DNA of 54,851 bases from NCBI GenBank assembly GCA_007129145.1, contig SKWC01000131.1:1-54851 (forward strand), given 5' to 3'. The notes below the pieces were generated by a model that worked only from the letters and a program-made list of their open reading frames with translations, ran no database searches and had not been told where the DNA came from. This document shows positions 1,022 to 54,851 of this stretch, one piece after another (position 1 is the first letter of the stretch; each line of letters opens with the position of its first letter). The translations under genes and the position numbers were made by a program. The stretch comes from Rubritepida sp. Lineage in GTDB: Bacteria; Pseudomonadota; Alphaproteobacteria; Acetobacterales; Acetobacteraceae.

Positions 1022-1025
1022 CCCC

Positions 1026-4387: not shown

Positions 4388-4417
4388 TTGACACACCCCC
4401 CGGTACTGCGGTATGAT
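4388..4417 (+). promoter_or_regulatory. Sigma70-type promoter of the replication operon
   Basis: TTGACA-18 nt-TATGAT, followed by GAAAGGAGG RBS. Confidence 0.8.
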
Positions 4418-4444
4418 GCCGGGGCGTACAGAAAGGAGGCCCCC

Positions 4445-4639: not shown

Positions 4640-4653
4640 GACAGGAGAACCAC

Positions 4654-7015: not shown

Positions 7016-7017
7016 GC

Positions 7018-7940: not shown

Positions 7941-8103
7941 GGAGTTCATGGCCATCACCCCGGAGGACATCGCCGCCTCCCACGCTAGGGACAAGGCGTA
8001 CTTCGATGAGGTCGTCGGCCCTGGCCCGGTCCGGCTCAAGTTCAAGAAGTCTCGAAGGAAGGGGTCGAAGCTGGTACCACGTGCCAAGCGTGCGTCATAC
8101 TGA
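7888..8103 (+). CDS. Small basic hypothetical protein
   Basis: ATG at 7888 after GAGGAGG; MPKRKKERKSLFG. Confidence 0.6.
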   Translation: MPKRKKERKSLFGNITREEFMAITPEDIAASHARDKAYFDEVVGPGPVRLKFKKSRRKGSKLVPRAKRASY

Positions 8104-8107
8104 CCGC

Positions 8108-8605
8108 ATGCACAGTCCACGTGAACTCCGAATCCAGCTCGAATCGCACGAGAAGATGCTGAACGACCTCCAGGAAGAGATCAGCGTGATGGAGGAAGGC
8201 GTCTCTCACATCGACATCGACCTCTCCAACACCGTCGCCGAGTTCGTCGAGAGCACCGGGCGCCAGTCGTACGAGTTCTACAAGTGGCGCCGCAAGGCGA
8301 AGTGGGCAAGGCACCACAAGATCAAGGCCATCACGGTGGCTCAGGAGCGCGTGCGTGCGTACGAGGAGAAGGTGCGCCAGACGCAGCTCCTCCTGCACGC
8401 CGTCGAGTCCGGCTACCGTGGCCAGGACCCGCATCAGCTCCTCTCGGCCACGTACCACCTGCTGATGGAAGTGCTGTCCCGCTCGGATTACACCGTCGAC
8501 GCTCACCAGATGGGCTTGATCGCCGCCATCCGGCTGAGCCTCGGCATCGACAAAGAGGACGGGCAGGCCCCGCAGCCTGCCCGCCCCATCCCCCAAGCAC
8601 CGTAG
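8108..8605 (+). CDS. Coiled-coil hypothetical protein
   Basis: ATG at 8108; heptad-like N-terminus. Confidence 0.65.
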   Translation: MHSPRELRIQLESHEKMLNDLQEEISVMEEGVSHIDIDLSNTVAEFVESTGRQSYEFYKWRRKAKWARHHKIKAITVAQERVRAYEEKVRQTQLLLHAVESGYRGQDPHQLLSATYHLLMEVLSRSDYTVDAHQMGLIAAIRLSLGIDKEDGQAPQPARPIPQAP

Positions 8606-8614
8606 GAGGTGTGC

Positions 8615-8944
8615 ATGTCAGCACGCAGAGATACTACCCCGCAACCGTCCGTGGTGGAGATGATGGCCATGATGAGGTCACGGGTCGTTACCAAGGTTCG
8701 CAGCCTTCCCCCGTCTCTCCAGGTCACTGCCATCTGGCTGTACGAGCAGGCAGACGGGAATGACGTGATCGACGACATCGACTGGGAGCGGCTCGCTGAG
8801 GACACCAGCATCGCCGAGACCACCCTGCGCCGCGTTCACCTGCGCGACTCAACCATCCTCACCACCCAGGGTGGATTCATCGAGCGTGAAGAGCGCCTCA
8901 TCGGCGGCTCCATGAGCAAACCGATCTTCCGCTTCTACCTGTAA
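8615..8944 (+). CDS. Putative winged-HTH protein
   Basis: GGAGG RBS; DWERLAEDTSIAETTLRR helix-turn-helix followed by GFIEREE wing. Confidence 0.55.
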   Translation: MSARRDTTPQPSVVEMMAMMRSRVVTKVRSLPPSLQVTAIWLYEQADGNDVIDDIDWERLAEDTSIAETTLRRVHLRDSTILTTQGGFIEREERLIGGSMSKPIFRFYL

Positions 8945-8951
8945 CGCAACA

Positions 8952-8983
8952 TCTACCCCCCTGTCGGTGAACAGGGGGGCAGA
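8952..8983. terminator. 13-bp hairpin upstream of the initiator gene
   Basis: TCTACCCCCCTGT-N6-ACAGGGGGGCAGA. Confidence 0.45.
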
Positions 8984-9054
8984 AGTGACGGTGTGGGAGC
9001 ACCATCGTGGGACAGACGCGACCCACATTGTAGCACCGTCACGGGAAGGCATCA

Positions 9055-9945
9055 ATGGGAGTCATCCGCAACAAGGCCCAATCCCACTTCACCAGCCTGC
9101 CGAACGAAACCCTCCGTGACTCGACACTCTCCTGGGCGGCGCGTGGCCTCCTGAGCGCGATGCTGTCGTACCCGCCCGACTGGGAGTTCAACGTCACGCA
9201 CCTCCTCACCCTCGCCACCGACGGGAAGCACGCGACGCGCAGCGCCATGAAGGAGTTGATCGAGCGCGGGTACGTGACGCGTCAGCGTGCGCAAGGCGGC
9301 TGGGATTACGACGTGTTCGACGTGCCTCAGGGCGAAAGTTCACAAGTCCGAAAATCAGACATGTGGAAATCACACATGTGGAAATCAGCCACTACGAAGA
9401 CTGAAGGTTCTACGAAGACTGAAGAAGAAACGAACGCGCCTTCAGAGAGCGGTCTGTTCACCGAAGGGAAGAAGCTCGGGAAGCGCGAGTGGGTTGCGGT
9501 GGTCGACTCGTTCAGGCAGTTGTGGAACGAGAACCGAGGCACGCTTCCTTCGGTGAACAGGATGACCGGCGCCCGCGAGAAGAAGGTCATGGCCCTCGTG
9601 AAGGAGCTTGGCCTCGATGAAGCCTTGCGCCTGTTCGAGTTGGCCGTGCGTGTCGTCGCCGCTGATGAGTTCTGGCAGAAGAAGGGCTACGGCATCGACA
9701 ACTTGATGCGTGACGGGCGCGTGGTCGAGAAGGCCGAGGCCGCACCGGAGGAGCGCAGGGTCGAGCCACCCATCGTGGGCGCCATCGTGGCGTTCAAGGA
9801 CGTGTCCTCGCCGAGGCAGCCCATCGTGCGTGGCCGGGTGCTGGAGGTCAGCGATCATCAGGTCGTGGTGATGGTCGAGGACGTGGACCGGAGAACGGGT
9901 ACGGAGCGGCGCGTGTCACTGAATCAGGTGGTCGCGAATGCGTAG
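9055..9945 (+). CDS. Phage replication initiator (N-terminal HTH, lambda O-like organisation)
   Basis: FTSLPNETLRDSTLSWAARGLLSAMLSYPPDW...AMKELIERGYV; internal tandem repeats. Confidence 0.8.
   Translation: MGVIRNKAQSHFTSLPNETLRDSTLSWAARGLLSAMLSYPPDWEFNVTHLLTLATDGKHATRSAMKELIERGYVTRQRAQGGWDYDVFDVPQGESSQVRKSDMWKSHMWKSATTKTEGSTKTEEETNAPSESGLFTEGKKLGKREWVAVVDSFRQLWNENRGTLPSVNRMTGAREKKVMALVKELGLDEALRLFELAVRVVAADEFWQKKGYGIDNLMRDGRVVEKAEAAPEERRVEPPIVGAIVAFKDVSSPRQPIVRGRVLEVSDHQVVVMVEDVDRRTGTERRVSLNQVVANA
9350..9424. repeat. Iteron-like repeats, probable replication origin
   Basis: Three 15-bp units (GAAAATCAGACATGT, GGAAATCACACATGT, GGAAATCAGCCACT) followed by CTACGAAGACTGAAG twice; locally AT-rich. 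Confidence 0.7.
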
Positions 9946-11851
9946 AGATGGTGATGAGCTGACCGCCGCCATCGCCGCGAAGGACCTGAGCAAACTGATC
10001 GCCGCGCACTACCCTGACTCGAGGGTGGATGTCGGCAAGCCCGGCGTGTACTTCGCTTCGTGGCGGGGGAACACGAACACGCCTGCGCTCTCGTTGTCGA
10101 AGAAGCAGGGTGTGTGGTTGTGGCATGACATGGCGACGGGCGAGGGTGGCAATGCCTTCGACTTCATGGTCAACATCATGGGAATGGGGCGGCAAGAGGC
10201 AGCGATAGGGCTTCTCTCGGAGGCTGGGTACCGCCCAGGAGAGCCTCGAGAGGGTGGGTCGGCCTCCAAGTCCCGGCCACTACCCCCGGAGGCCGTCACG
10301 GCCTTCTCACAGCCTGAGATCGTGCCAATCGCAGCCATGAAGGGGCGCGGTTTCAACAAGCGGATGCTCGAAACGTACCGAATCATCCCCGCACCCGACC
10401 GACCGGACGATGCGCTGATCCCCATCACCAGCCCGGAGGGCGTCATCCTTCAGGTGAAGCGCCGCATCCACAACGCGCAGAAGGGCAAGTACCGCTACGA
10501 GCACGAGGGTTACGGAGGCCCACCGTGGTGCAGCCCAGGCTCCCGGAAGCCGAACGTCTTGTACGTCATCGAGGGGGAGCTGAACGCCATCGTAGCGCAC
10601 GCGTCACTACTGGAGGCCGGTGAGCGCATCGGTGTGATGGGCGTAGCCGGAGCGAAGAACTCCCTGTACGAGGGCCTGTGCATGGGCAAGTCGGTGTTCA
10701 TCTATGCCGACGACGACAAGGCCGGGAAGGAGGCGATGGACGCCTGGAGCGAGGAAGCCAGGAAGCAAGGCGCCCGCAGCGTGCACCGACTCCCACCCCT
10801 GCCGATGGACTTTTGCGACTACGCCGCTCAGCACGGGCGTGAGGCGCTGGCGGCGAAGCTCAGGGAGATGCACCACTTCAGCATCCAGGTGTTCGGGGCA
10901 ATGGATCGCATGGTCGGGTCGTACACGGTTCGAGAACTCGCAAAGAGCGCCGCTCGCTACATCAGCGGCGAGGTCATCAACCCGCTCGGCATCGGCGCCA
11001 TCGACTACGAGACGGGCGGCATGGGTGAGAGCGGCGTCATCGCCATCGGCGCCCTGCCCAGCATCGGCAAGAGCGCCCTGCTCAGGAAAGCGCTGCTCGA
11101 GCACGTGAGGATGGGTGGCACGACCCGGCTGTACAGCCCGGACCAGAGCACGCATGCCATCTACCGCCTGCTCGCCAGCCTACTCAGCGACGTGGGCACG
11201 AAGGAAGCAAGGCAGCGCAACTTCAGCCGAGCGGTACTCGACCGGTACGGCGACCCAGAAGCCGCCATCAAGGCGTGGAAGGACGCGTACGAGTACGTCG
11301 TGATGGAACTGTCGAGCCGCTTCCAGGTCAGCGAGGAGAGCGACCTCACCGAGATCGGCAAGGACATGGAGCGGGCTAGGGATCAGGGCGTCACCATGTT
11401 CGGCGGTGACTACCTTCAGCTCTTCGAGATGGGCGCGTCGTCGCAATGGGAGGGCAACAGCGAGGAGGGTGCGGTGGCGCAGCGCTTCAAGCGCCTCACC
11501 CGCAACCTCGGCGTGCTGTTCGTCTGCGCCGTGCAGCTCGCCAAGTACAAGTTCCCCATGACCCGCAAGAGCGGCATCCCGTTCCCCAGCGACATCGAGG
11601 GCAGCGGCAAGACGTGGCAGGCAGCCGAGATGGCGTTCGGCATCTACAACGACAGCATCTACGGACGCATGTACGCCGGACCGGACACCGACCTGATCGG
11701 TGACCCGCCCGACATCGCACGGCTGTACCTCTGGAAGCACAAGGAAGGCGATCCAGGGTTGGAGTTCAACGTGCTGTGGCACGGTCGCATCGCTGCGTTC
11801 AAGGACCCGAAGCGACCCAAGCTCGAGCACGAGAGAGAGGGCCTGATGTGA
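9938..11851 (+). CDS. DNA primase-helicase (Toprim + DnaB-like SF4)
   Basis: WHDMATGEGGNAFDF, Toprim IEGELN and ADDDKAG, Walker A GALPSIGKS, GDYLQL, SDIEGSG. Confidence 0.9.
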   Translation: MRRDGDELTAAIAAKDLSKLIAAHYPDSRVDVGKPGVYFASWRGNTNTPALSLSKKQGVWLWHDMATGEGGNAFDFMVNIMGMGRQEAAIGLLSEAGYRPGEPREGGSASKSRPLPPEAVTAFSQPEIVPIAAMKGRGFNKRMLETYRIIPAPDRPDDALIPITSPEGVILQVKRRIHNAQKGKYRYEHEGYGGPPWCSPGSRKPNVLYVIEGELNAIVAHASLLEAGERIGVMGVAGAKNSLYEGLCMGKSVFIYADDDKAGKEAMDAWSEEARKQGARSVHRLPPLPMDFCDYAAQHGREALAAKLREMHHFSIQVFGAMDRMVGSYTVRELAKSAARYISGEVINPLGIGAIDYETGGMGESGVIAIGALPSIGKSALLRKALLEHVRMGGTTRLYSPDQSTHAIYRLLASLLSDVGTKEARQRNFSRAVLDRYGDPEAAIKAWKDAYEYVVMELSSRFQVSEESDLTEIGKDMERARDQGVTMFGGDYLQLFEMGASSQWEGNSEEGAVAQRFKRLTRNLGVLFVCAVQLAKYKFPMTRKSGIPFPSDIEGSGKTWQAAEMAFGIYNDSIYGRMYAGPDTDLIGDPPDIARLYLWKHKEGDPGLEFNVLWHGRIAAFKDPKRPKLEHEREGLM

Positions 11852-12312
11852 TCGGATACTCGTTCGACCTGAGCAAGAGCAACACCGGCATGGCCAAGTG
11901 GCTCGGCGGCAACCTGGCACAAGTCGCCTCCGTGTCGTTCCAGGAGCATCACTACTTCGGGCACGTGCTCATCGACTTCGAGCGCTTCATCGACGAGACG
12001 TTCGTCGACCCCTCGTGGGTGGCGTACGAGGAAGTGATGGTCAGGAACAAGCTGCACGGCGAGCTTCACTTCGGCATGGTGGCGCTGCTCGCCATCGCCT
12101 GCTGCGAGATGGAGGTGCCGCTCATCGGCATCAACACCATGACCATGAAGAAGCAGGTGGTCGGCACTGGCCGAGCGACGAAGGAAGAGATGCTCGAGAC
12201 CATCCGGGCCAGGTACCCGGAGCACTACATCACCGATCACGACGTGGCTGACGCCGTGGCCGTCGGGATTATGGCGATCAGCATGATGGAGGTGCGCAAT
12301 GGCGGCGAGTAG
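11848..12312 (+). CDS. RuvC-like Holliday junction resolvase
   Basis: GTG at 11848; FDLSKSNTG, AYEEV, KKQVVGTGRATKEEM, DVADAVAV. Confidence 0.88.
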   Translation: MIGYSFDLSKSNTGMAKWLGGNLAQVASVSFQEHHYFGHVLIDFERFIDETFVDPSWVAYEEVMVRNKLHGELHFGMVALLAIACCEMEVPLIGINTMTMKKQVVGTGRATKEEMLETIRARYPEHYITDHDVADAVAVGIMAISMMEVRNGGE

Positions 12313-12955
12313 GCGCTGGTCGCCCGATGAGGACAGGCTCATCGAGAAGTTCATCGTCCACAAGGGTGTGCACTCCACCATCAAGGCGCTGCACATGGCG
12401 GGTTTCTCGGATCGGAACATCAGGGGTCTCGCCGAGAGGTGCAAAGCGCTCGGCGTCAGAGCGGGTGAGGGCAACGGCTTCATTCGCGTGATCGACGTGG
12501 ACTCCGGCCACAACCGATCGGGCGGCAAGGAGCGCTTCACTCGGAAGAGCGTGCTGTCGCAAGCCGAGGCCGATGGGGTGCTGCGGCGCGTGCCGTACGG
12601 ACCCAACGGGAAGACCATCCCGTACGTGCCGGAGAAGTGGGCGGACGCGTACGTCGAGCGGATGTCGAAAGCGACGAATGGTGAGGAGATCGCGCGGCAT
12701 CACATCCGTCGCTCCTGGTTGCCGACCAAGGCACTGCCGGACTTGTTCGGCATCTCGATGCGCACCATCGAGCGGCACATCCCTGCCGCCGTCGGCGACA
12801 AGGGCAGGCGGCACAAGTCGTATCGCTACAGCGTGCGGCCCTACCTTGACGCGATACCGAAGCAGCGCGTGGGTAGGGCCGTGTACTGGGAGCCGAGCCT
12901 CGCCGAGGTGAACGCCGCCTCGTACAAGCGCACGCTCCCCCCGGTGCGGGGCTAG
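12299..12955 (+). CDS. Putative DNA-binding regulator
   Basis: N-terminal RRWSPDEDRLI (Myb/GcrA-like) and C-terminal HTH LPTKALPDLFGISMRTIERH. Confidence 0.55.
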   Translation: MAASRRWSPDEDRLIEKFIVHKGVHSTIKALHMAGFSDRNIRGLAERCKALGVRAGEGNGFIRVIDVDSGHNRSGGKERFTRKSVLSQAEADGVLRRVPYGPNGKTIPYVPEKWADAYVERMSKATNGEEIARHHIRRSWLPTKALPDLFGISMRTIERHIPAAVGDKGRRHKSYRYSVRPYLDAIPKQRVGRAVYWEPSLAEVNAASYKRTLPPVRG

Positions 12956-12965
12956 TTGACACCTC

Positions 12966-14333
12966 TCACGTGCTCAGCAAATGCTCGTGAAGGAACTGGG
13001 CAGCCAGCAGGCGCGTGCGGTCCCACGTGTTGTTACTAGCCGCCTGCGTCTGCGAGTGCGAGCGCATCACCTCGTTCAGCGCCGCAATATCACCTGACGA
13101 ATCCCATGGTGACAAGAACCCCCACGTGCCGTTCTGGTAGATGAAAGCCGACACGCGGGTGAAGCTACCCTCTCGGCTCTCCCACCCGCATGGCGTGGTG
13201 CCGCCCGCCATACAGGCGCTCAAGCCGTTCGACACCGGGTTCGAGTTGTCCATCATCCGCTGCGTGATCGCGCGACCGAATCGCTCCAGGTGCACCGGAT
13301 CAACCCACACGTCGAATCCCTGGAAGTACATGTCTAGCACGTCCATGAAGGGGAACTGCGTGTACGTGCTCGGGCAGATGTAGTCGCCCGATCCGTCCGT
13401 GATGAACTGAGCGTTGCGCCTGAAGGCGTACGCGGTGCCGGTCGCCGTGCTGTACGAGCACAGGTTCGCCGGGTTGAGGATGAGCGCGTTCATTCGCTGC
13501 GCCTCTGCCGTGTACGCGCTGTTCCCGGTGAGCAACCCCATGTAGTAGTGCCAGTTCGACCACGCGAAGTATCTATCGAACTGAGCGGGCCAGTTGCGGA
13601 TAGGGAACCCGCTCGGCTTGTTCCAGCGGGCACGCAACTTCGCCTCGAAGTGCGTCAACAGGTAGTTGCGCAGCCAATCCGCGCGAGCGCCGTAGCTGTA
13701 CCCCTCTGGGCTTACAAGATCACGGTTGTGGTGAAGCATGTACGCCACCTGTGCAACGAGGGCGTGCGTGGCGTAATCGTAATCCTCACGCAGGTCCGTG
13801 CCGCGCTGCGCGTTGTTCGGGTTCTGTCGATGCACCCACATCAGGTACCCCGTATCGAAACCCTCCGTAGCGCAGCCCGACGTGCTGCACGTCCCCCTGT
13901 ACTTCGTGTCCAACCTGAGCGCCGTGCCTGGTGAGACCTCTCGCTTGTAGAGCATGATATCGAGCAGCTCATAGATCGTGTCGAGGAACCACATGTCGCC
14001 CGTCGCTCGAAAGGCGATGATCTGCGCACCGATGTTCGTGCGCAAATCGTGCGAGTACCACCAGATGTCATCACGGCGAGCGTTCTGGTACGGATCGCGT
14101 GAATCATCCGTGCCGCGCTTGATAAGGGCCTTCATCGTGCTGAGCCGTGTCTGCTGCGCTGAGCTGAGCAGCGTAGCGTCGAAGCCGGGATCACCCCGTA
14201 GGGTCATCACGGAGCGCGGCGGTGGATCGGTGGGCGGCAGCGAACCGACAGGCAAGAACGAACCGGACACACGCACGTACGCTTCCGCGTCGACGAACTC
14301 GCCGCCCTGACGGTACCTGTACCGGGGAGCCAT
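12966..14333 (-). CDS. Tail-associated protein, putative alpha-helical carbohydrate-active enzyme or receptor-binding protein
   Basis: Short adaptor N-terminus, Pro linker, aromatic-rich helical repeats (AFRATGDMWFLD, GLLTGNSAYTAEA); last gene of the tail operon. Confidence 0.55.
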   Translation of the reverse strand: MAPRYRYRQGGEFVDAEAYVRVSGSFLPVGSLPPTDPPPRSVMTLRGDPGFDATLLSSAQQTRLSTMKALIKRGTDDSRDPYQNARRDDIWWYSHDLRTNIGAQIIAFRATGDMWFLDTIYELLDIMLYKREVSPGTALRLDTKYRGTCSTSGCATEGFDTGYLMWVHRQNPNNAQRGTDLREDYDYATHALVAQVAYMLHHNRDLVSPEGYSYGARADWLRNYLLTHFEAKLRARWNKPSGFPIRNWPAQFDRYFAWSNWHYYMGLLTGNSAYTAEAQRMNALILNPANLCSYSTATGTAYAFRRNAQFITDGSGDYICPSTYTQFPFMDVLDMYFQGFDVWVDPVHLERFGRAITQRMMDNSNPVSNGLSACMAGGTTPCGWESREGSFTRVSAFIYQNGTWGFLSPWDSSGDIAALNEVMRSHSQTQAASNNTWDRTRLLAAQFLHEHLLST

Positions 14334-43809: not shown

Positions 43810-46179
43810 CTACGGAAGCCTGTCGAAGAGGTCCCATCGGGCACGTTCAAGCTGCTGGTAGATGCGCTCACCATAGGACGGCATGTTGCCTCTCGTCCCG
43901 TAACGCGCCATCAACAGTGCCATGCCATCAAGCAGGTCCTCTATGACGGAGTTGGCTTGACGGACGGTATCGGCTTTCCCAATCCCAGCATCAAACAACT
44001 GGATCATCTCGGCAGCTTCCGCGATCAGGGACTCTGCCCCGTCGTCCCTGAGGAGAAAATCGGTCATTGCATCGTTGAGCCGTCTCCGCACTTCCTGCGG
44101 CACGGGCAACGGATCGCCCTCCGGTGAAAGCGGAGCTGGGAAGAAGCCTCTACCGCGAGCCTCCTCCGCGTAGGCCGTATCTGTCCCAACGAGATCAAGC
44201 GCTTCGCTGTACTGCTCCTTCCACTTTGCAATGGGCCTTCCGGCTTCATCTGACCTGGCGACACGCGAACCCGATGCTGCAAGGTGATCGAACTCTTGCT
44301 GCGCCTGCTGGGCCTGAACATCCGCGAAATGCCCCTGGTCGGCGGTCCTATGAAAGTCAAGATTCGCATCTTGATGTGTTGAGTATTCACCCCATGGGGT
44401 GCTCTCCCTACTGGCTCGCCACACCTCACCTCGGTTCGGCATCGCCGGGTCCAGCACAGGGTCGATATCAGGCCGTTCGTCCACGATCCTCGCAACCCGC
44501 GCCTCGGCCTCGTCGAGGTACCGCATGAACGCAAGGTGCGGCTCCCGCATGCCGCCATCAGGGTAGGCGTTCTGGAAGCCTCGCCGCATGTCACTGACCG
44601 CGTCGAGAGTGTTCATCAGGGCTTCCTTTGGCATCGGCGTGCTCGTCGGCGTCACGACTGGCGACAGGACGTTCTCGATGTCGCGGATGAAGTTCGCGTA
44701 CGATTCCATCTCCATCGAGTTGTTCGTACCGACGAGGAAGTCCGGCACCCACTCCATGCCAGGACCGTCGATGCCCAACTCGGTCGCTGTTCGTATCGCA
44801 AGCTCCGCTTCGTCGGCGGCGCCCGTGAACCCCTCGCGGAACGCCTTCAGGCCCGTCAGCTCATCCGCAGTGTCATGCGTCCGCACCATGCCCGCCAAGG
44901 TCGACTTCAACTCAGGCTCCGTCAAGCCCGTGCCCTCGCCGAGGAATCGCATCGCGCCGTCCTCGCCCATCGTCTGAATCGCCCGCTCCACGAACTGCTC
45001 CACGCCCTCACCCGGTGCGCTGGCCTCAGCGAAGCGCTGCAAGGTCGGCAGGTGGTCCGGCACCGCCTCGGGGGCACGGCTGATGACGCGACCCGCCTGC
45101 TCGTAATGGCCCTGCGCCGCCTGGTCGTACATGTTGAACAGCGTCTCGATCATCTCATTCACTTCGGGCTGGGAGATGTTGTGACCCTTCGCCCGCAGCT
45201 CCGCGTACCGCGCGATGCTCTCGTAATCGTAGGTCGGCAGGCCGATCTCGCTTGGGTGTTCGACGTAATCCCAGCCGTACCTGGCCCTCTCTGCCTCGGC
45301 CAGAGTGGTTGGGGCGCTCTGGTCGCGAGGGCGAGGGGGTGTTTCCCATCCTGGCGGCAGGGTCAACCCCTCATTCTCGCCAACGACACCCTTCATGATT
45401 CGGACCGGAACCGGACTGTCGGCCTGAACTGCCGCCAGTACCCGATGGTTCCCATCGCCCACCTTCCAGCGGCCTGTGTTCGGGTCGAAGATCACGATCA
45501 CGGCCTCTTGCGTGCCGCCCGGTTGATCCAGGAGGCGGAAGAAGTCCGTCTGCTGCGCAGCGGAGCGCCTCGGCAGGTTCCCCGCCGCCTCCTGAAGGAT
45601 GCTCGCGGGCATGAAGCCGAGCTGCTTCCCGCCACTCGTGCTCGCGGACAGCATCCTGATGCCAGCCGGGCCGAGCAGCGCGAACATCGGGATCAGGTCC
45701 GTGACCTTCTTCGCGCCGGTCGGGTCCGGCACCAGGAACTCAGCCATCATCGCCAAGATCGGATGCACGCCGCGCTCGATCAACGCCTCCGAGACCATCG
45801 GGGCGGTGTTGCGGTAGCGGCCCTCCTCGTCCATTTGCCAGTCGGTGCTCGCCGCCGCATCGAGCATTTCACGCAAGCCGCCACCCTGGACGGCTGCGCC
45901 CACGGCTCGGGTCGGCCCCTCGATGGGGGACAGCCACGACATCGTTGAGGGCCGAGAGAAGAACTCGTCGGCCTGCCGCATCATCCCGGCACCCAGCTCA
46001 CCGAAGGCATTGGCCTCCGCGCCTCGCGCCTGCATGATGTTCGGGCCGAGGTTCTGCCAGCCCTCCTGCAAGCCCGACAGGAACCGCTGGATGGCGTTCT
46101 GCGTGTCGGGCTGTGGCCCGCCCTGCGGCTGCGGTGCCCGCATCTGCTGAAGGTCTTGAGGGTTCCACTGGTCAGCCAT
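43810..46179 (-). CDS. Multidomain protein with a ParB/Srx-like domain (candidate injected polyvalent protein)
   Basis: AVIVIFDPNTGRWKVGDGNHRVLAA...VPV; Gln/Pro-rich N-terminus. Confidence 0.7.
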   Translation of the reverse strand: MADQWNPQDLQQMRAPQPQGGPQPDTQNAIQRFLSGLQEGWQNLGPNIMQARGAEANAFGELGAGMMRQADEFFSRPSTMSWLSPIEGPTRAVGAAVQGGGLREMLDAAASTDWQMDEEGRYRNTAPMVSEALIERGVHPILAMMAEFLVPDPTGAKKVTDLIPMFALLGPAGIRMLSASTSGGKQLGFMPASILQEAAGNLPRRSAAQQTDFFRLLDQPGGTQEAVIVIFDPNTGRWKVGDGNHRVLAAVQADSPVPVRIMKGVVGENEGLTLPPGWETPPRPRDQSAPTTLAEAERARYGWDYVEHPSEIGLPTYDYESIARYAELRAKGHNISQPEVNEMIETLFNMYDQAAQGHYEQAGRVISRAPEAVPDHLPTLQRFAEASAPGEGVEQFVERAIQTMGEDGAMRFLGEGTGLTEPELKSTLAGMVRTHDTADELTGLKAFREGFTGAADEAELAIRTATELGIDGPGMEWVPDFLVGTNNSMEMESYANFIRDIENVLSPVVTPTSTPMPKEALMNTLDAVSDMRRGFQNAYPDGGMREPHLAFMRYLDEAEARVARIVDERPDIDPVLDPAMPNRGEVWRASRESTPWGEYSTHQDANLDFHRTADQGHFADVQAQQAQQEFDHLAASGSRVARSDEAGRPIAKWKEQYSEALDLVGTDTAYAEEARGRGFFPAPLSPEGDPLPVPQEVRRRLNDAMTDFLLRDDGAESLIAEAAEMIQLFDAGIGKADTVRQANSVIEDLLDGMALLMARYGTRGNMPSYGERIYQQLERARWDLFDRLP

Positions 46180-46180: not shown

Positions 46181-47299
46181 TCACCTGCCCCTGTTCAGGA
46201 ACTTGTTCAGCGCTCGGATGGCCTCACCGTACTCTTCCATCGGAATGCCCCTGCTGCGATCCCAGCCACCAGTCGGGCCTTGCAGGACTTCGAGAAGTCT
46301 CGAACCGTCCCACGGTTGCACGAAGTGGCGACTCGGCGCGTAGAGGGCGCCCTCCTTGCCAACACGATCCCACCATCCGCTGTAGCCCAGGTCGATCATC
46401 GTCGGCATCACCTGAGGCTCAGGAACGTACGTGTACACCATCTCGTACAAGCGACGCGGGTCCAACCGGCCCTCATCCGCGAGACGCGTCACGCCACGCA
46501 GAAACGTCGGGTCAGTCCTCGGGTTATCAGCCAAGTTCGCGACGATGCGCTGCGCCTGCTCAGGGGTGAACGGACCCTGCTCGAAGTCCAGTAGGTTCGC
46601 GCCAGCCACGTATCCCGTCCGCACGTTCGGAGCCGCATCAGGTCGACCGCTACCCCCGCCGAAGAAGCCGGTGTCCTTCGCGGGCGACCCGGCGTAACGC
46701 GCGGCACGCTCAGGGTCCTGCGTGAAGTACCACCCCGGCCCACCACCCGACGAACCAGGTCGAGGCTTGTCGTACACGTAGTTCGTACCGTGATACATCG
46801 GCATCGGCAAGCCATCAGCGCCAGCGATGCTGATGCGACCCAGCGCCCGCAGAGCCGCCCTCGGGATCATCGCCGCCATCTGCGCGAACTGCCCAGGCCC
46901 AGGCTCGAACACGCCCATCGCCGCCTGCGCCGCCAAGCCACGCGCACCCTCGAAGCCCTGCTGAGCCGTCACGTCCCCGTACGTCAGTGAGGGATCGAAC
47001 GCAGGCAAGTCACCCCACGTGCCGGGGTGCGCCAAGATCGCCTGCCAGATGTTCGCCGGGATCGCGTCAGGGTTGCCGTAGTTCGCCGCGACCGGACCGA
47101 GTCGCTCACCAGTCTCCGCAGCCATCTGCCGCCAGCCAGCCAGGAACCGCTGAATCACGTTCCCGCTATCAGTCCGAGGAGCCTCCGCTACCGGGCTTCG
47201 CATCTGGCTGAGGTCGGCGTGCTGGAAAGCCCGCCCATCGTGCTGCCCGCTGGGCGTATGAGTCCCCGTGGGCGGTGGCCGTCGGTCGCGGTCTGCCAT
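46181..47299 (-). CDS. Protein with a C-terminal ADP-ribosyltransferase-like (ART-PolyVal-type) domain
   Basis: PMYHGT...GPGWYFTQDPERAARYA...NVRTGYV..NLLD...GYSG. Confidence 0.7.
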   Translation of the reverse strand: MADRDRRPPPTGTHTPSGQHDGRAFQHADLSQMRSPVAEAPRTDSGNVIQRFLAGWRQMAAETGERLGPVAANYGNPDAIPANIWQAILAHPGTWGDLPAFDPSLTYGDVTAQQGFEGARGLAAQAAMGVFEPGPGQFAQMAAMIPRAALRALGRISIAGADGLPMPMYHGTNYVYDKPRPGSSGGGPGWYFTQDPERAARYAGSPAKDTGFFGGGSGRPDAAPNVRTGYVAGANLLDFEQGPFTPEQAQRIVANLADNPRTDPTFLRGVTRLADEGRLDPRRLYEMVYTYVPEPQVMPTMIDLGYSGWWDRVGKEGALYAPSRHFVQPWDGSRLLEVLQGPTGGWDRSRGIPMEEYGEAIRALNKFLNRGR

Positions 47300-49611: not shown

Positions 49612-50248
49612 CCTCGACTTCCTTCCTGGTGCGGCGACAGATGCGGCACTCGTCCTCAAGGTACCCGTTCTGCGGCGTCGCTTTGACCCACTCGTGGTCC
49701 AGCGGAGCGCACACAGGTGGCCGCGCGATGTGGTCGATGATGCCGCGGCCCTGCTCGAACGCTTCCGGCGCGGCGTACGCGTTGTCCTCATCGATGAAGG
49801 CGTACGGGTACCGAGCGCCGCGCAGCAGCTCTTCACCGAAGAGCGTCCTGATGACCGAGGCATTCGCCCTGCGCCCGGCCCCCCAAAAGAGCGGATTGAA
49901 GCCGAACTCCGTCAGGTTGCGCTCCATCGGATCGGCCCTGCCTATGCGGGGCGGCTCCGGCCCGACGAAGTACCGCGTGGCGATGGGCAGTACCTCATCG
50001 GTGGGCCGGGTCACGCCGCACCTGCGGCAGGTGGAGAGGCCGGTGCAGAAGAGGGCCTCGCCCGCTGGGCGGTACTCCTGCCACGCGTGCCCGAACACCT
50101 CGCAGTCGCTCGTGAAGAGACCCTGGATGTCGTCGAGGTCCACCTGCGTCACCATGCGTCCGCACTTGTCGCAGATGTACGCGTGCTGCTGCGGCTGATG
50201 CACGAACGAGTGCCCGTACAGCGTGCACTGATCCACGTCACTCGGCAT
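49604..50248 (-). CDS. Multi zinc-finger protein
   Basis: Three C-x4-H...CxxC units (C.LYGH..CDKC, C.VFGH..CRRC, C.PLDH..CRIC). Confidence 0.7.
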   Translation of the reverse strand: MPSDVDQCTLYGHSFVHQPQQHAYICDKCGRMVTQVDLDDIQGLFTSDCEVFGHAWQEYRPAGEALFCTGLSTCRRCGVTRPTDEVLPIATRYFVGPEPPRIGRADPMERNLTEFGFNPLFWGAGRRANASVIRTLFGEELLRGARYPYAFIDEDNAYAAPEAFEQGRGIIDHIARPPVCAPLDHEWVKATPQNGYLEDECRICRRTRKEVEDA

Positions 50249-50287
50249 CGGCCTCACCCTCGATGGCTTTGACGGCGCTGGCGTCCA

Positions 50288-50629
50288 TCACTCCACCAGC
50301 CCAAGCTCACGCAACCAGCCGCGCATCTCGAGTTCCGACAGGCGCCGAGTGGCTCTATACTCCCGCCCTTCGACCTCGATGACTAAGCGCTCACCGTCCG
50401 AGTGCAGCGTCACCTTCGGTTCCTCACCGCGCCGCATCGCCGCAGCGATGGACGCACCACCGGGCGTGTGTAGCAGGCTCGCGTACGCCTCACTCAGCGC
50501 TTCCTGTCGGCGAGCGAGAACCTGCTCGGCGGCGCTGGCGGCGTGCTGCGCTTCGGAGACCTCGGCCATCTGCGCGTTGAGGATGCGCATGATCGCGGGA
50601 AGCGTGTCGCCGGAGTAGATGTTCATCAC
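50288..50629 (-). CDS. Hypothetical protein
   Basis: Coupled to the RHH gene. Confidence 0.65.
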   Translation of the reverse strand: MMNIYSGDTLPAIMRILNAQMAEVSEAQHAASAAEQVLARRQEALSEAYASLLHTPGGASIAAAMRRGEEPKVTLHSDGERLVIEVEGREYRATRRLSELEMRGWLRELGLVE

Positions 50630-50868
50630 TTCCGCGCCTTCACCTGCGTGGTCTTCGAGAAGTCTCGAACCGGGCGCGGCTCAGGCTCAACGGGCGACGC
50701 CACGCGGGGCTGAGGCTCCCTCACTTGACGTACCTGATCCTCAGCTTCCTTCTCCCGAGACAACCGCTCCAGCGCGAGCACCTGAAGCGACACGCCTCTC
50801 TTCGCTGCCTCCACGCGCATGTCACGGTGAAGCTCATCAGACACCTGCACCTTCACCCACTTCGCCAT
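50626..50868 (-). CDS. Ribbon-helix-helix DNA-binding protein
   Basis: ATG at 50868 after GGAGG; MAKWVKVQVSDELHRDMRVEAAKRGVSLQVL. Confidence 0.8.
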   Translation of the reverse strand: MAKWVKVQVSDELHRDMRVEAAKRGVSLQVLALERLSREKEAEDQVRQVREPQPRVASPVEPEPRPVRDFSKTTQVKARK

Positions 50869-50880
50869 CACAAACCTCCG

Positions 50881-50970
50881 TGTTCCACCGGAACAACCAG
50901 AACATGTTCCAGGTGTTCCCATAGTACCACAGGAACAGTTCCGGTGGAACCAAGAGAACCAACGGAACAA
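50881..50970 (-). promoter_or_regulatory. Leftward promoter embedded in a GAAC/GTTC repeat array
   Basis: TTCCAC-17 nt-TACTAT with extended TG on the - strand; GTTCCACCGGAAC and its reverse complement flank it. Confidence 0.6.
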
Positions 50971-51217
50971 ACCCCCCTACCCAAAGACATTGGGCGAGCA
51001 CGCCCCCCTACCTAAAAACCTTGAGCGAGGGGTTTCGGGAGATAGAAGCGGCTGCGCGCGCGTGTGGGCGCGTGCCCCCCCCCTGGGTTCGTGTGGGGGT
51101 GGGTCGGTTCGGGTCGGTACCTGCCGGGTGAACGTACCGCACCGGACGGTGCCGCCGGGTGCTACGATGGGTGCCGGTGTCACTGGCCTCGAGCCGGTGC
51201 GCCGCAGGGAGCACAGC

Positions 51218-51625
51218 ATGACGAAGCCGCTAGCACGCCGTCCGAAGCCCCGCATCGTGACCCCGACCGGCTCACCCGTGCCGCAGGCCACCGGCACCCG
51301 GGCCGTCCGACCGTCGGCACGACAGTCGCAACGCTTCGAGGCGCACGGTCCGCTCACGTGGGACGCTCCGACGGCCACGCCGCACGAGCGGTCGGACGGG
51401 ACACGGGTGTGGCAAGTGGAGACCGCGCCCCACCGTCCGGACGCTGGCGGCGCACCGGGCCGCGGTGCGCGTCGTGCGACGCGGCGCAACCGTGATGTCG
51501 ACCATGTGAACGAAGCGGTCGCGCCCGGTTGGTCACGTGCCGACCGTCGGGCATGGGCCGCGGCGCAACGTGAGCGTCGTGAGACGGCCCGCGCGACCCG
51601 GCGTAGGGTACGCGTCACGGGCTAG
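51218..51625 (+). CDS. Arg-rich basic hypothetical protein
   Basis: ATG at 51218 after AGGGAG; TG-C-TACGAT at 51160-51168. Confidence 0.55.
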   Translation: MTKPLARRPKPRIVTPTGSPVPQATGTRAVRPSARQSQRFEAHGPLTWDAPTATPHERSDGTRVWQVETAPHRPDAGGAPGRGARRATRRNRDVDHVNEAVAPGWSRADRRAWAAAQRERRETARATRRRVRVTG

Positions 51626-51739
51626 CGTCCGGACGTCCCCACGGCCCACACACGGCCCGCGTGCACCATGCGCGGGCCGTTCCCATGCCGTGGGGGACGC
51701 ATCATCGCGCGACGGCGCAACGGGTGCACGCGGTACCAC

Positions 51740-51769
51740 TTGACAACACCCCCGGTGGTGTGCAACACT
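51740..51769 (+). promoter_or_regulatory. Sigma70-type promoter of the putative ncRNA
   Basis: TTGACA-18 nt-AACACT with extended TG. Confidence 0.6.
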
Positions 51770-51774
51770 TACCT

Positions 51775-52435
51775 CACAACGCACCACGGGCTCCGCGACC
51801 GGAGCACCCGTAGGACCGCCACCATAGGACCGACGTGCACATAAGTGCTACGTGCTGTAAGCGCTCACGTTCGCGTGAGACACCATGGGCTATGTCCTGG
51901 TATCGCACGAAGGCGTCACCCGTGCAATGGTCCTACGGTGTGGTCCTACTCGTGTGTGTGTTGTGTACAGCCTAACCTCACGTTCGACCAGTGCCGCGCG
52001 TGTCTCGGCACGGGTGCACGCCTAGTGTGCCCAGTGGCATTCGGTCGACGATAGCGCGGAGTGTGAGCCGCGCCGATAGTCACCTATTGGGTCGGTGACC
52101 GTCATGCGTAAGCGTGGCGACAATGGATCGCGAGTCCGTCTGCCCAGGCGCCGAGTGTGGGCAAGCGCGGCTAGACCCTAGCATGGGTCGAACGATGGTC
52201 CTTGAATGTTGGCATCCAGCCGGGGCGACAGTTGAACCCATGGCGGGCAACGCGAGTGTGCTCCTCGCGTGATGTGGCCGATTCTCGTTCGGGGTTACAC
52301 ATCAGCACGCCCAAAGGTCAACCGGACCGGTGATGTTCCAACGGTCGCGATGCGGGATACTCGCGGCCACCCTACGTACTACTTCCACAGGCTCAGGCCC
52401 ACGTCACGTGTCAAGCGCGGCGTGGGCCTTCTCTT
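51775..52435 (+). ncRNA. Putative large structured non-coding RNA
   Basis: No credible ORF; nested long-range stems, more than ten hairpins, UUCG and GNRA loops, G.U pairs favouring the + strand; flanked by a promoter and a terminator-like hairpin. Confidence 0.7.
52395..52435 (+). terminator. Intrinsic terminator-like hairpin
   Basis: AGGCCCACGTC...GGCGTGGGCCT followed by TCTCTT. Confidence 0.55.
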
Positions 52436-52475
52436 CCACTCGCTCGCTGATGAGCGGTGGGGAAACGGAGCCACC

Positions 52476-53165
52476 ATGAACACTGCGGCAATCGTTGCAG
52501 GCCTCATTCACGCGTTCGTCAAGAGCGCGGAGGCGATCGGTGCTCAACGCATCGCGTTGGGCGACACGGTGCTCACCCTGTGGAAGCACTTGAGCAAGGC
52601 TGAAACCGCTGAGCGCTTGCGCGACGCGATCCCCGATGAGCGTGCTCGCATGCTCTTGGGTCGCGTCATCACGCCGGGGCTGCTGAACGACTTGGCAATC
52701 GCGGCGTCGACGTTCCGTGAGAACGAGGGTTTGGCACATGGCAATCACATCCTGACGCGCGATGACGTTGCGCGACTCGACGTGAAGCCCGCTGAACTCG
52801 CTGAGATCGCGAGCGCTGCCGCTTCGGGCAAGGTGCGCGTCAAGGACGTGCACGCTGCCACGAAGGGCGGCAAGGGCGGCGAGAAGGCTCTTGCTCGTAT
52901 CCGTCAGACCTTGGCCGCGTCGGATGAACCGGCGCTCACCCCTATCCAGGCCAAGGAGCGTGAACTCGAGCAGCTCGACAAGCGCATCGCCGACCTTCAG
53001 GCCAAGCGCAAGAAGGTCATCGACGACCTCGCGAAGATGCGCGAGGAGCGCGAGGCACAAGCGGAGGTCGACGCCGCCGTCGCCGTCGTGCAAGCGGAGC
53101 GCGTCGAGAAGCCGGTGCGCAAGAACACCACGCGCAAGCCGAGTGAGGCGCGGCTCAGCGCGTAA
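52476..53165 (+). CDS. Early protein with C-terminal coiled coil
   Basis: ATG at 52476 after GGAG; the ORF-track upstream extension is unlikely. Confidence 0.75.
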   Translation: MNTAAIVAGLIHAFVKSAEAIGAQRIALGDTVLTLWKHLSKAETAERLRDAIPDERARMLLGRVITPGLLNDLAIAASTFRENEGLAHGNHILTRDDVARLDVKPAELAEIASAAASGKVRVKDVHAATKGGKGGEKALARIRQTLAASDEPALTPIQAKERELEQLDKRIADLQAKRKKVIDDLAKMREEREAQAEVDAAVAVVQAERVEKPVRKNTTRKPSEARLSA

Positions 53166-53225
53166 GGGATCGGCAATCGGGGCGTCCTGGTTCGAGAGTT
53201 CTCGAACCGGGGCGCCTCACCGCTC

Positions 53226-53456
53226 GTGAAGGGGGACGCCTTGCACATCAAGCGCATCATCCGTCAGCACCGTCGTGACTTCACGGCCATCTACGAGTGC
53301 GAGCACTGCGGCACGCAAGAGGAGGCGTCCGGGTACGACGACACGTACTTCCACCAGCACGTCATCCCCAACATGAAGTGCAAGCGGTGCACGCTCACAG
53401 CGGGTGAGGATTACCGTGCGCTGGCGACCAAGTACCCCGACGATCAGACCGTCTGA
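53226..53456 (+). CDS. Small zinc-ribbon protein
   Basis: RRDFTAIYECEHCG...GYDD..FH..VIP.MKCKRC. Confidence 0.75.
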   Translation: MKGDALHIKRIIRQHRRDFTAIYECEHCGTQEEASGYDDTYFHQHVIPNMKCKRCTLTAGEDYRALATKYPDDQTV

Positions 53457-53465
53457 GGAGGCGAC

Positions 53466-53666
53466 ATGGGCAAGGGTGCACCGGAGCGCATCCACACCGC
53501 CGCATTCCACCCGCTCGGCTTGGCATGGGAAGCGGGCAACGCCGCCTACCGGCGTGGCATCATTCCAGCCGCCAACCCGTACAACGACAGGCTCGAGCGA
53601 CACGAGTACGAGGCGTGGCTCGCCGGGTTCTGGTTCGCTCATCAACGCGCCGTCACCGGCAAGTAG
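53466..53666 (+). CDS. Small hypothetical protein
   Basis: AWEAG..AY..G...NPY...EAWLAGF motif (Rmf-like repeat pattern). Confidence 0.7.
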   Translation: MGKGAPERIHTAAFHPLGLAWEAGNAAYRRGIIPAANPYNDRLERHEYEAWLAGFWFAHQRAVTGK

Positions 53667-53675
53667 GAGGCAAGC

Positions 53676-53882
53676 ATGGCCAACCGCAACGACCACGTGA
53701 TGACCAACGACGGGCTGCGCCGCATGAGCCTGACGACCGTGCGGGTCATGCCGCAGCGCCGCATCAGGCGCACGTTCACGGCGCCGCAGCCCACGCCCAT
53801 CGCCACGCCCACCGTGACGAGCAAGCCGGGCGTGCTCAGCGCCATCGCCTCGGCGTTCCGCAGGTGGTTCGGCATGCGCTGA
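53676..53882 (+). CDS. Small hypothetical protein
   Basis: GGAGG RBS. Confidence 0.6.
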   Translation: MANRNDHVMTNDGLRRMSLTTVRVMPQRRIRRTFTAPQPTPIATPTVTSKPGVLSAIASAFRRWFGMR

Positions 53883-53992
53883 GCCACCAGCACGACAATC
53901 AGGGACCGGCAATCGCAGCGTGCCGGTCCCGCTATCTTGCGTCCCCAATCCACCTATCCGGGGGCGAGCATCATTCACGAAGGAGGCACGAC

Positions 53993-54226
53993 ATGGCACG
54001 CAGCACCACGCAAGCACCAGCAGTTCACCTCGGTGACCCTCGCAACCCGATCATCGTGCGGCACGAAGGTGACCGCACCATCATCGAGTTCGACCACACC
54101 TTCCGGGCGCCCGAGACCACCGGCAAGGGCAATCGCCGCATCGCCAGCAGCCTCGGCAACAAGGAGGTCATCACGCCCGACGGTGCCTCGTTCATCATCG
54201 GTCTCAACGCCTACGCTCAGGGCTGA
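53993..54226 (+). CDS. Small hypothetical protein
   Basis: AAGGAGG RBS; TTGKGNRRIASSLGN...IGLNAY. Confidence 0.7.
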   Translation: MARSTTQAPAVHLGDPRNPIIVRHEGDRTIIEFDHTFRAPETTGKGNRRIASSLGNKEVITPDGASFIIGLNAYAQG

Positions 54227-54232
54227 GGCACT

Positions 54233-54261
54233 GTTACAGACCCCCCTGTTTTAGGTAGAAT
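54233..54261 (+). promoter_or_regulatory. Putative promoter
   Basis: GTTACA-17 nt-TAGAAT. Confidence 0.5.
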
Positions 54262-54271
54262 CGAGGCAAGC

Positions 54272-54508
54272 ATGGCCGATAAACCAACCGATCTGACACC
54301 GGAGGACCTGGAGGCTCACCGTGCCCGCGTGGAGCGCCAGGACAGGTACCTCGCACAGCCTGACAGGTGCCCTTACTGCGGGTCGTCAGACCTCACGGGC
54401 GGCAGCCTCACCGTGGACAACGGCTCGTGCTCGCAGCGCATCTGGTGCTCCGACTGCGACCACTCCTGGTACGACTGCTACGCCCTCGTCGGGTTCACGG
54501 AGGTGTGA
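54272..54508 (+). CDS. Small zinc-ribbon protein
   Basis: CPYCGS...CSDC. Confidence 0.75.
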   Translation: MADKPTDLTPEDLEAHRARVERQDRYLAQPDRCPYCGSSDLTGGSLTVDNGSCSQRIWCSDCDHSWYDCYALVGFTEV

Positions 54509-54510
54509 CC

Positions 54511-54693
54511 ATGCCCACGTACTCAGTCAAGGAGACCTGGGTTCGCTGCCATGAGGTCGAGGCCGACAACGAAGAGGACGCCGTCGACATCATTGTCGCC
54601 GAACTCGAGACCGAAGCCGATAGCATCGAGTTCGCCGACAACGCACGTGCACTCGGCTTCGATGAAGAGCGCCTGACCGCAGAGGAGGTGTGA
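54511..54693 (+). CDS. Small acidic hypothetical protein
   Basis: MPTYSV...EVEADNEEDA; GGAGG RBS. Confidence 0.7.
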   Translation: MPTYSVKETWVRCHEVEADNEEDAVDIIVAELETEADSIEFADNARALGFDEERLTAEEV

Positions 54694-54694
54694 C

Positions 54695-54841
54695 GTGACC
54701 GTCTTCTGGTGGGCGTGCATCATCCTGCTGACCGTTGCCATCCTCGACCCGCACGAGGGCAGAGGAAAGGCGTTCGCCATCATCGGCGTGCTGTTCGGCT
54801 TCATCTCACTGATGGCCAACGTCCTACGAATCGGAGTGTGA
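54695..54841 (+). CDS. 48-aa two-TM membrane peptide
   Basis: GTG after GAGGAGG; MTVFWWACIILL...GVLFGFISLMANVLRIGV*. Confidence 0.6.
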   Translation: MTVFWWACIILLTVAILDPHEGRGKAFAIIGVLFGFISLMANVLRIGV

Positions 54842-54851
54842 CCACGTGAAC

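What the first reader, a model, noticed from the sequence alone, without database searches (positions are those of the whole stretch)
51775..52435. About 650-nt highly structured non-coding RNA with its own promoter and terminator
Seen: the largest gene-free stretch of an otherwise tightly packed genome. It starts about 6 nt after a TTGACA/extended -10 promoter. CACAACGCACCACG (51775-88) pairs with CGTGTGTGTGTTGTG (51951-65), and GTAGGACCGCCACCATAGGACC (51810-31) pairs with GGTCCTACGGTGTGGTCCTAC (51929-49). These enclose a multibranch loop that includes CTCACG-TTCG-CGTGAG (51864-79). A second domain is closed by TCGACC/GGTCGA and contains GGGTGCAC/GTGTGCCC. Further hairpins follow: GCGCGG/CCGCGC, GTCACC/GGTGAC, GTCATGC-GTAA-GCGTGGC (52101-18), TGCCCA/TGGGCA, GACCC/GGGTC, ACGCGAG/CTCGCGT and TGATGT/ACATCA, then a terminator-like stem. 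Most non-Watson-Crick positions are G.U on the + strand, which suggests RNA-level selection. Established: phages carry large ornate RNAs (GOLLD, ROOL). Inference: an early-expressed large ncRNA, possibly a new class (decoy, anti-defence or scaffold). I cannot assign it to a family.
Basis: partly seen in the sequence, partly recalled or inferred. Interest (0 to 1): 0.85.

Follow-up and report, generated by a model that had tools for sequence, protein, structure and literature searches.

The report
New large early phage noncoding RNA
An uncultured soda-lake phage keeps, between a predicted early promoter and its first early gene, a 660-base gene-free stretch whose base-paired fold is preserved while its letters change in related phages; it matches no catalogued RNA family and likely makes a stable RNA early in infection, probably to bind and tie up host proteins.

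Summary
The window is a 54.9-kb podovirus-like contig, probably infecting Deinococcota.

The new evidence is covariation. In relatives from four sequencing runs, 10 of 11 doubly changed pairs and 12 of 15 singly changed pairs stay paired on the + strand. Read on the - strand, 13 of 22 paired variants break. This indicates RNA-level selection, not a DNA cruciform or a protein.

A distant relative (terminase-like protein 68% identical) has a folded ~480-nt gap at the same place, with the same start motif and 3' hairpin + UUCUCU tail. Homology of the two RNAs is not shown statistically.

Nothing matched in Rfam, phage, plasmid, IMG/VR or JGI searches. One metatranscriptome contig covers 51787-52222, which is weak evidence of transcription.

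Corrections: the -10 is poor, the terminator must be leaky, and 52207-52393 folds no better than shuffles. The closest analogue is the Pleft RNA of Cluster A mycobacteriophages, by position only. Function is inferred: a stable early decoy RNA (0.45) versus a cis leader (0.3).

The parts
51740..51769 (+). Predicted host-type early promoter: -35 TTGACA (51740-45), 18-nt spacer, weak TG-extended -10 (51764-69)
   Evidence: Sequence. The same 18-nt spacing occurs at window 4388 and at L033 1567 and 14001. The spacer resembles that of the 4388 promoter. No -35 change is among the rows shown for X5/X6, while the -10 varies and is closer to consensus in X6. Start site not measured.
51775..52436 (+). 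Predicted ~660-nt structured non-coding RNA (ends inferred)
   Evidence: Folding; covariation; RNA-library contig 51787-52222; motif ACAACG 6 nt after the -10 in both window and L033
51775..51965 (+). Domain I: 14-bp closing helix, short hairpin 51790-805, 21-bp arm 51810-32/51928-49 topped by a multibranch loop
   Evidence: z -6.6. Compensatory pairs 51792/51803 and 51794/51801; G.U-preserving changes at 51775, 51786, 51878, 51935, 51946, 51948
51981..52119 (+). Domain IIa: bulged helix 51981-97/52034-50 with two inner hairpins, then hairpins 52054-73, 52079-99, 52100-19
   Evidence: 6 of 7 doubly changed pairs kept in the bulged helix, with its two strands read from runs X7 and X5; compensatory pair 52057/52070
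52121..52204 (+). Domain IIb: three-way junction; small hairpin 52174-89 whose loop UAGCAU is unchanged in the variants seen
   Evidence: z -4.1 on +, 0.0 on -. Stem shortened by one pair, or with a swapped pair, in loose ends of X5, X6, X7 (read by eye)
52208..52342 (+). Domain IIc: long irregular stem with a sequence-conserved segment at about 52270-52320
   Evidence: Folds no better than shuffles. Compensatory pair 52272/52302. The translation of 52269-52320 reappears as the mis-called N-terminus of distant homologue P0065, implying conserved nucleotides (inference)
52395..52436 (+). Terminator-like hairpin with UUCUCUUC tail, likely leaky
   Evidence: Strongest hairpin + U-tail on the early strand in both window (-24.5) and L033 (-25.6, tail UUCUCUAC); not called by the consensus scan
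52432..52470 (+). Second hairpin and ribosome-binding site (GGAG 52467-70) of the first early gene
   Evidence: Same hairpin-hairpin-AACGGAG-AUG layout in L010
52476..53165 (+). First early gene, 229 aa, helical domain plus coiled coil; weak structural likeness to the KorB DNA-binding domain
   Evidence: 34% identical to the syntenic L010 gene; 30 relatives; model pLDDT 88; best fold match KorB Z 6.2, rmsd 3.5, 97 aligned, below the tool's trust level

Best explanation
This is a gene-free stretch whose + strand fold is conserved by compensatory base changes; it is likely transcribed from a predicted early promoter into a stable ~660-nt non-coding RNA that probably acts in trans by binding host proteins during takeover. 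Steps: (1) shown: multi-domain fold under strand-specific selection, not coding. (2) Inferred: host RNA polymerase starts near 51776 soon after DNA entry. (3) Inferred: most transcripts stop at the hairpin + UUCUCU tail near 52436 and a minority read on into the early operon, so one promoter gives much RNA and less mRNA, as measured for mycobacteriophage Pleft. (4) Inferred: the likely host family lacks RNase III, so the long helices would persist. (5) Most speculative: the paired domains are a fast-evolving scaffold and the poorly folding but sequence-conserved segment near 52270-52320 is the protein-binding site, making the RNA a decoy or sponge. My odds by step: real structured RNA 0.9; accumulates as a discrete species or its processed pieces 0.7; acts in trans 0.45.
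For: Covariation: of 34 substitutions inside the RNA, 19 are at paired sites on +; 10 keep the pair, 6 are compensatory, 3 break. On -, 13 of 22 break. With loose ends, 10 of 11 double changes (nominal P 9e-4) and 12 of 15 single changes (nominal P 4e-4) keep pairing. Not coding: GC by codon position is flat at 0.61/0.63/0.63 versus 0.70/0.45/0.80 in the next gene, and relatives carry 1-2 nt indels. Conserved slot: promoter, folded gap (z -6.7), same first gene in L010, with the same +1 motif and 3' layout. An RNA-library contig spans 51787-52222. No RNase III in 0 of 128 genomes of the bin family holding L010, nor in the Thermus and Deinococcus controls. Analogue: PMC5712189 passages.
Against: No test of function was possible. 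Transcription evidence is one library of one sample, held as contigs with no strand, ends or level; the same library also holds capsid and other phage pieces at similar contig depth (6-9 versus 8), so very high abundance is not shown and DNA carry-over is not excluded. Only 40 of 108 substitutions and 12 of 40 indels were displayed, so partner changes may be hidden. Six of the ten compensatory pairs come from joining two runs; without them it is 4 of 4, P 0.03. Variants are related, so P values are nominal. Homology to the L010 RNA is not shown: local alignment z 3.1 overall but 1.2 without the last 60 nt, and a model of domain IIb missed its look-alike at E<=10. The adjacent coding DNA also folds well (z -3.5, -4.5). 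The host is inferred, not shown.
Confidence: 0.45

Rival explanations
1. Cis-acting leader: the fold works only on its own transcript, setting read-through at the 3' hairpin, modifying RNA polymerase (put-like antitermination; recalled) or shielding the 5' end of the long early mRNA.
For: It is the first 700 nt of the early arm and no other promoter was found before 54233. The 3' hairpin pair abuts the ribosome-binding site in both phages. Antitermination is suspected in phage 7-11, which has the same divergent layout (PMC8948821 passages).
Against: The consensus scan finds no intrinsic terminator on the early strand: 0 of 6 in window 1-13500, 0 of 6 in 50000-54851, 0 of 8 in L033. Internal promoters exist at 4388 and 54233. 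Covarying helices lie 400-650 nt from the gene, and no alternative fold that would switch the terminator was evident.
Confidence: 0.3
2. RNA-only assembly: it oligomerises into a GOLLD/ROOL-like cage or other scaffold through loop-loop contacts.
For: Size and number of domains are in the range of these RNAs (PMC12286853 passages). One invariant loop (52179-84) could pair over 5 bp with loop 52258-62 (by eye, untested).
Against: No Rfam match even at E<=10; no tRNA genes in the window; most loops with variants change freely; a scan of unpaired stretches gave one 5-bp candidate only.
Confidence: 0.1
3. Genome-end or packaging element: a DNA secondary structure, or a phi29-type packaging RNA (recalled).
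For: It lies 700 nt from a G/C-run motif shared by three phages at the switch between late and early arms, a plausible terminus.
Against: G.U-preserving changes work on one strand only, which fits RNA and not a cruciform. No Rfam hit to any packaging RNA. The phage has a portal-adjacent 596-aa terminase-like protein, though that label rests on position and motifs, with no library hit.
Confidence: 0.05
4. T7-type early leader that is simply cut off by host RNase III (recalled).
For: Same position; long helices of 14-21 bp.
Against: RNase III domain found in 0 of 128 genomes of the likely host family and in neither Deinococcota control; PMC8708148 passage names D. radiodurans as lacking it. This depends on the host inference.
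Confidence: 0.04
5. Partly coding: 52269-52475 is a real N-terminal extension of the first early gene.
For: The frame is open and in phase here and in P0065, which shares the first 17 residues closely.
Against: The changes at 52272, 52279, 52302 are first- or second-position and alter residues while keeping or allowing pairs. Short indels occur at 52411-52429. Only 1 of the 30 aligned sequences carries such an extension. The ribosome-binding site is at 52467-70.
Confidence: 0.03

Closest known systems
Pleft non-coding RNA of Cluster A mycobacteriophages L5, D29, StarStuff (PMC5712189; abstract and passages read, supplements not read)
   Same: About 500 nt without convincing ORFs between the early promoter and the first early gene; most transcripts stop before the gene; sequence diverges fast with many small indels.
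   Different: No sequence match. That paper reports no canonical stem-loop terminator and the main-text search found no mention of secondary structure, whereas here there is a hairpin + U-tail and covarying structure. Different virion type and host. Abundance, processing and toxicity are measured there and untested here.
GOLLD, ROOL and OLE large ornate RNAs (PMC12286853; passages read)
   Same: Large, multi-domain, covarying RNA of unknown function; GOLLD and ROOL are phage-borne.
   Different: No model hit; no tRNA island; conserved pseudoknots or kissing loops not demonstrated; sits at the head of the early arm.
Kayvirus (phage K) lncRNA1 and lncRNA2 (PMC11598898; passages read)
   Same: About 500-nt ORF-free phage RNAs, expressed from early times, function unknown.
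   Different: No sequence match; those are highly conserved in sequence and lie upstream of tRNA genes in a large myovirus.
Early arm of phiEco32-like podoviruses such as 7-11 (PMC8948821; passages read)
   Same: SU10-type portal and adaptor; early and late arms transcribed in opposite directions, early promoters at the start of one arm.
   Different: The passages read mention no non-coding RNA there; no protein match of terminase-like, capsid or portal genes to cultured phages.

Membership tests
GOLLD / ROOL / OLE and other Rfam families | Match to the family covariance model | tested here: not met
   0 hits at gathering score over the window; only 2 chance hits at E<=10, both outside the RNA; L010 region likewise
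GOLLD / ROOL | Often beside tRNA islands | tested here: not met
   0 tRNA genes in the window; about 7 kb of the genome may be missing (62,026-nt contig on record)
GOLLD / ROOL | Conserved kissing loops and pseudoknots | tested here: inconclusive
   One 5-bp candidate by scan, one by eye; too few homologues to test
GOLLD / ROOL | Forms RNA-only oligomers | not testable with these tools
   Needs in vitro biophysics
Pleft-type early ncRNA | Lies between the early promoter and the first early gene | tested here: met
   same in L010. Promoter is predicted, not mapped
Pleft-type early ncRNA | No conserved ORF | tested here: met
   Short ORFs of 35-69 codons exist, but codon-position GC is flat and relatives carry frameshifting indels
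Pleft-type early ncRNA | At the physical genome end | tested here: inconclusive
   Conserved terminus-like motif 700 nt upstream; ends not mapped
Pleft-type early ncRNA | Most abundant phage transcript, about 90% termination, processed | tested here: inconclusive
   One RNA-library contig at 51787-52222; contigs cannot rank levels
Pleft-type early ncRNA | Sequence homology to Cluster A right ends | tested here: not met
   No match in 50,697 phage records beyond a 31-nt chance hit in 4 Achromobacter phage records
Pleft-type early ncRNA | Toxic to the host when expressed | not testable with these tools
   Needs expression in a host
T7-type RNase III leader (recalled) | Host encodes RNase III | tested here: not met
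   0 of 128 genomes and 0 of 2 Deinococcota controls; host is inferred
put-type cis antiterminator (recalled) | Downstream intrinsic terminators to be bypassed | tested here: inconclusive
   None by consensus scan on the early strand; only weaker hairpin + U candidates; Rho-dependent sites not testable
put-type cis antiterminator (recalled) | Nascent RNA modifies RNA polymerase in cis | not testable with these tools
   Needs in vitro transcription

The most novel reading that the evidence does not exclude
The founding member of a new class of large, fast-evolving structured RNAs that an uncultured clade of Deinococcota podoviruses makes as its first product, exploiting an RNase III-free host. 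It works as an RNA-only anti-defence or takeover effector, possibly self-assembling through its invariant loops, before any phage protein is made.
Probability: 0.25. Interest if true: 0.85.

Novelty: new variant of a known kind. Interest (0 to 1): 0.64.

Why it matters
Large structured RNAs of unknown function are rare, and several have turned out to have surprising architectures. This one has real covariation, no family, and a fixed position as the likely first transcript of a phage clade with no cultured member in the collections searched. Abundant early phage ncRNAs (Pleft, Kayvirus lncRNAs) are an open question, and this gives a structurally defined example with separable domains. It can be transcribed in vitro or expressed in a laboratory Deinococcus or Thermus strain. 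If it acts in trans it would be an RNA-only takeover effector; if in cis, a very large new regulatory leader.

Tried and rejected
Homologue searches that found no relative of the RNA:
- Phages, plasmids; L010 RNA against phages.
- 200 genomes of the family of the bin holding the window (short chance hits only).
- 364 genomes of the likely host phylum (2 hits of 24-25 nt). The better hit lies upstream of a dehydrogenase gene, is not a CRISPR spacer and is not a repeat family; treated as chance.
- IMG/VR by RNA patterns (7 hits, none with flanking similarity) and by five protein queries.
- JGI metagenomes by RNA pattern, 0 hits. A protein-anchored scan gave 3 loci, none reaching the RNA. L030 ends 60 nt after a promoter that probably corresponds to the upstream one at 51164, so I do not count it.

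Other tests:
- A one-sequence covariance model of domain IIb did not find the similar-looking L010 domain.
- No antisense target longer than 13 nt (or 15 of 16) elsewhere in the phage.
- A pairing between 52190-95 and 52286-91 was dropped because relatives change the first segment.
- The antisense TTGACA inside the terminator hairpin shares 14 nt with the L010 promoter but has no -10 and varies in relatives; treated as chance.
- No CRISPR spacer match to 20 kb of the phage in 128 genomes, with only 2 candidates scored per genome.
- The RNA library shows little cover of 50193-51526; a hole in contigs proves nothing.
- First early protein: no Pfam family, Atlas hits below 0.9, no Foldseek match.
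- Literature searches listed no paper on this phage clade or RNA; listings only, open-access library only.

Full report
CONTEXT. The window is a whole contig (G000:C362) of 64% GC in a bin of 70.6% GC with which it shares almost nothing, so it is probably mis-binned. It encodes an SU10-type portal and adaptor, GroES, holin, endolysin and primase-helicase, which points to a podovirus-like phage. Early-type genes are on + (51.7 kb to the end, then 1-13 kb) and virion genes on -. It occurs in soda-lake and alkaline sediment runs. The terminase-like (my label, from position and motifs; no library hit), capsid and portal proteins have no match among 50,697 phage records, but 45 metagenomic proteins match the first, the window's own among them. 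The host is likely Deinococcota: 23 of 36 plasmid records matching the primase are Thermus or Deinococcus, and the relative L010 is binned in a genome whose S2 best matches chains I recognise as Thermus ribosome entries (organism recalled). No spacer confirms the host.

OBSERVATION. All named helices are present. Whole-length folding beats shuffles on both strands (z -4.6 and -5.2). By domain, the first three domains and the 3' hairpins fold well on +, while 52207-52393 does not. The first 330 nt beat all 50 control windows, although the neighbouring early gene also folds well. The promoter has a perfect -35 and a poor -10 at the 18-nt spacing that the other promoters of both phages use. The 3' hairpin with its UUCUCUUC tail is the strongest such element on the early strand but is not called by the consensus scan.

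COVARIATION. Four runs hold relatives mostly 80-95% alike. That call displayed 40 of 108 substitutions; I dropped the 6 in the promoter and scored 34. On +, 15 are unpaired, 10 keep the pair, 6 are compensatory (three pairs) and 3 break. Of those three, 52302 is rescued by a partner change visible in a loose end, and 51869 sits in an indel-ambiguous hairpin. On -, 13 of 22 paired variants break. Loose ends add more. In helix 51984-97/52034-48, 6 of 7 doubly changed pairs stay paired around the same bulge, but the two strands come from different runs. Overall 10 of 11 double and 12 of 15 single changes keep pairing, against chance rates of 0.41 and 0.34. Without the cross-run helix it is 4 of 4. 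These P values are nominal, because the variants are kin and rows are hidden. Read by eye, run X6 replaces the top of the long arm with different letters that again give 8 contiguous pairs, and the 52174-89 hairpin changes stem length and pairs around an unchanged loop. Tolerated G.U on one strand indicates RNA, not DNA structure. Flat codon-position GC and 1-2 nt indels exclude a conserved ORF.

DISTANT RELATIVES. L010 (terminase-like protein 68% identical) is syntenic: a consensus promoter, a ~480-nt gap folding at z -6.7, then a 34% identical first gene. Both RNAs have ACAACG 6 nt after the -10, closing a first domain, and both end in hairpin, UUCUCU, hairpin, AACGGAG, AUG. One three-way junction looks alike. 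Statistical homology is not shown. Separately, homologue P0065 was called with an N-terminal extension whose first 17 residues nearly equal the translation of 52269-52320. I infer that these nucleotides are conserved in a phage whose first gene is only 41% identical. So the least stable domain holds the most conserved sequence, a pattern expected of a binding site or tertiary core (inference).

TRANSCRIPTION. One metatranscriptome (X4) holds an exact 436-nt contig at 51787-52222, the longest X4 piece listed, starting 11-12 nt after the predicted start. It also holds other phage pieces at similar depth. Contigs give no strand, ends or level, so this is a weak hint.

MECHANISM. The best reading is a stable early RNA from a leaky promoter-terminator unit, acting in trans as a protein-binding decoy (0.45). 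Read-through must occur because the first genes have no other detected promoter. The Pleft locus of Cluster A mycobacteriophages shows this logic by measurement: about 500 nt, about 90% termination, processing and toxicity (PMC5712189, passages). A cis leader is the main rival (0.3). It is weakened by the lack of downstream intrinsic terminators but not excluded. A T7-like RNase III leader is unlikely, since 0 of 128 genomes of the likely host family have the enzyme (PMC8708148 passage). A GOLLD/ROOL-like cage is possible but has no positive support.

NOVELTY. No Rfam family matches, and no similar DNA was found in phages, plasmids, IMG/VR, JGI patterns or the genomes searched. The literature listings show no paper on it. 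The library is open-access only, and I read no supplements; the Pleft alignment figure could bear on whether that RNA is also structured. It works positionally like Pleft-type early ncRNAs but is not a member of any family tested. Verdict: a real, new, large structured phage RNA with covariation support and unknown function; interest 0.64.

Noticed in passing
window 1026, 8041, 15344, 18253, 22021, 27373, 30698, 34392, 40807, 42493, 46289, 49414, 50654, 53191: A 16-bp palindrome (TTCRAGA-N2-TCTYGAA, up to 1 mismatch) occurs 14 times, roughly every 3-4 kb and also inside genes; 0 in 5 shuffles and 0 in the other 2.4 Mb of the bin; also in L033 (4), L010 (2), L009 (2). The first early protein's best fold match is the KorB DNA-binding domain (Z 6.2, below trust level). 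Together they suggest a KorB/ParB-like or stoperator-like genome-wide binding system.
   Followed up: partly
window 51000-51100; L010 2400-2500; L030 340-420: Conserved A-run, GCGC-run and C-run motif with a sharp strand-composition switch between late and early arms in three phages; likely genome terminus or packaging signal.
   Followed up: partly
window 51160-51625: Extended -10 promoter (51164) and ribosome-binding site lead into a 135-aa Arg/Pro-rich ORF with flat codon bias; L010 has the same signals and a 284-aa ORF with no protein similarity. Could be a second non-coding or very fast-evolving unit upstream of the RNA.
   Followed up: partly
L033 5692-9905: The relative's early arm carries what read as a ubiquitin-like protein, a 656-aa protein, a JAB-like protein and a ThiF/E1-like protein in a row (labels recalled from the sequences, not scanned).
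   Followed up: no
window 50860-50980: Cluster of GGAAC/GTTCC repeats and a palindrome just upstream of a small ribbon-helix-helix-like gene (50626-50870; weak Pfam hits); possible autoregulatory operators.
   Followed up: no
window 52476-53230: The coding sequence of the first early gene folds unusually well (z -3.5 and -4.5), as does its counterpart in L010 in places.
   Followed up: no
window 46181-47299 and 43810-46179: Two large genes with related N-termini upstream of the packaging genes; one has a sub-threshold ART-PolyVal hit. The equivalent L010 genes share the N-termini but differ in the rest; possibly polyvalent ejected proteins.
   Followed up: no
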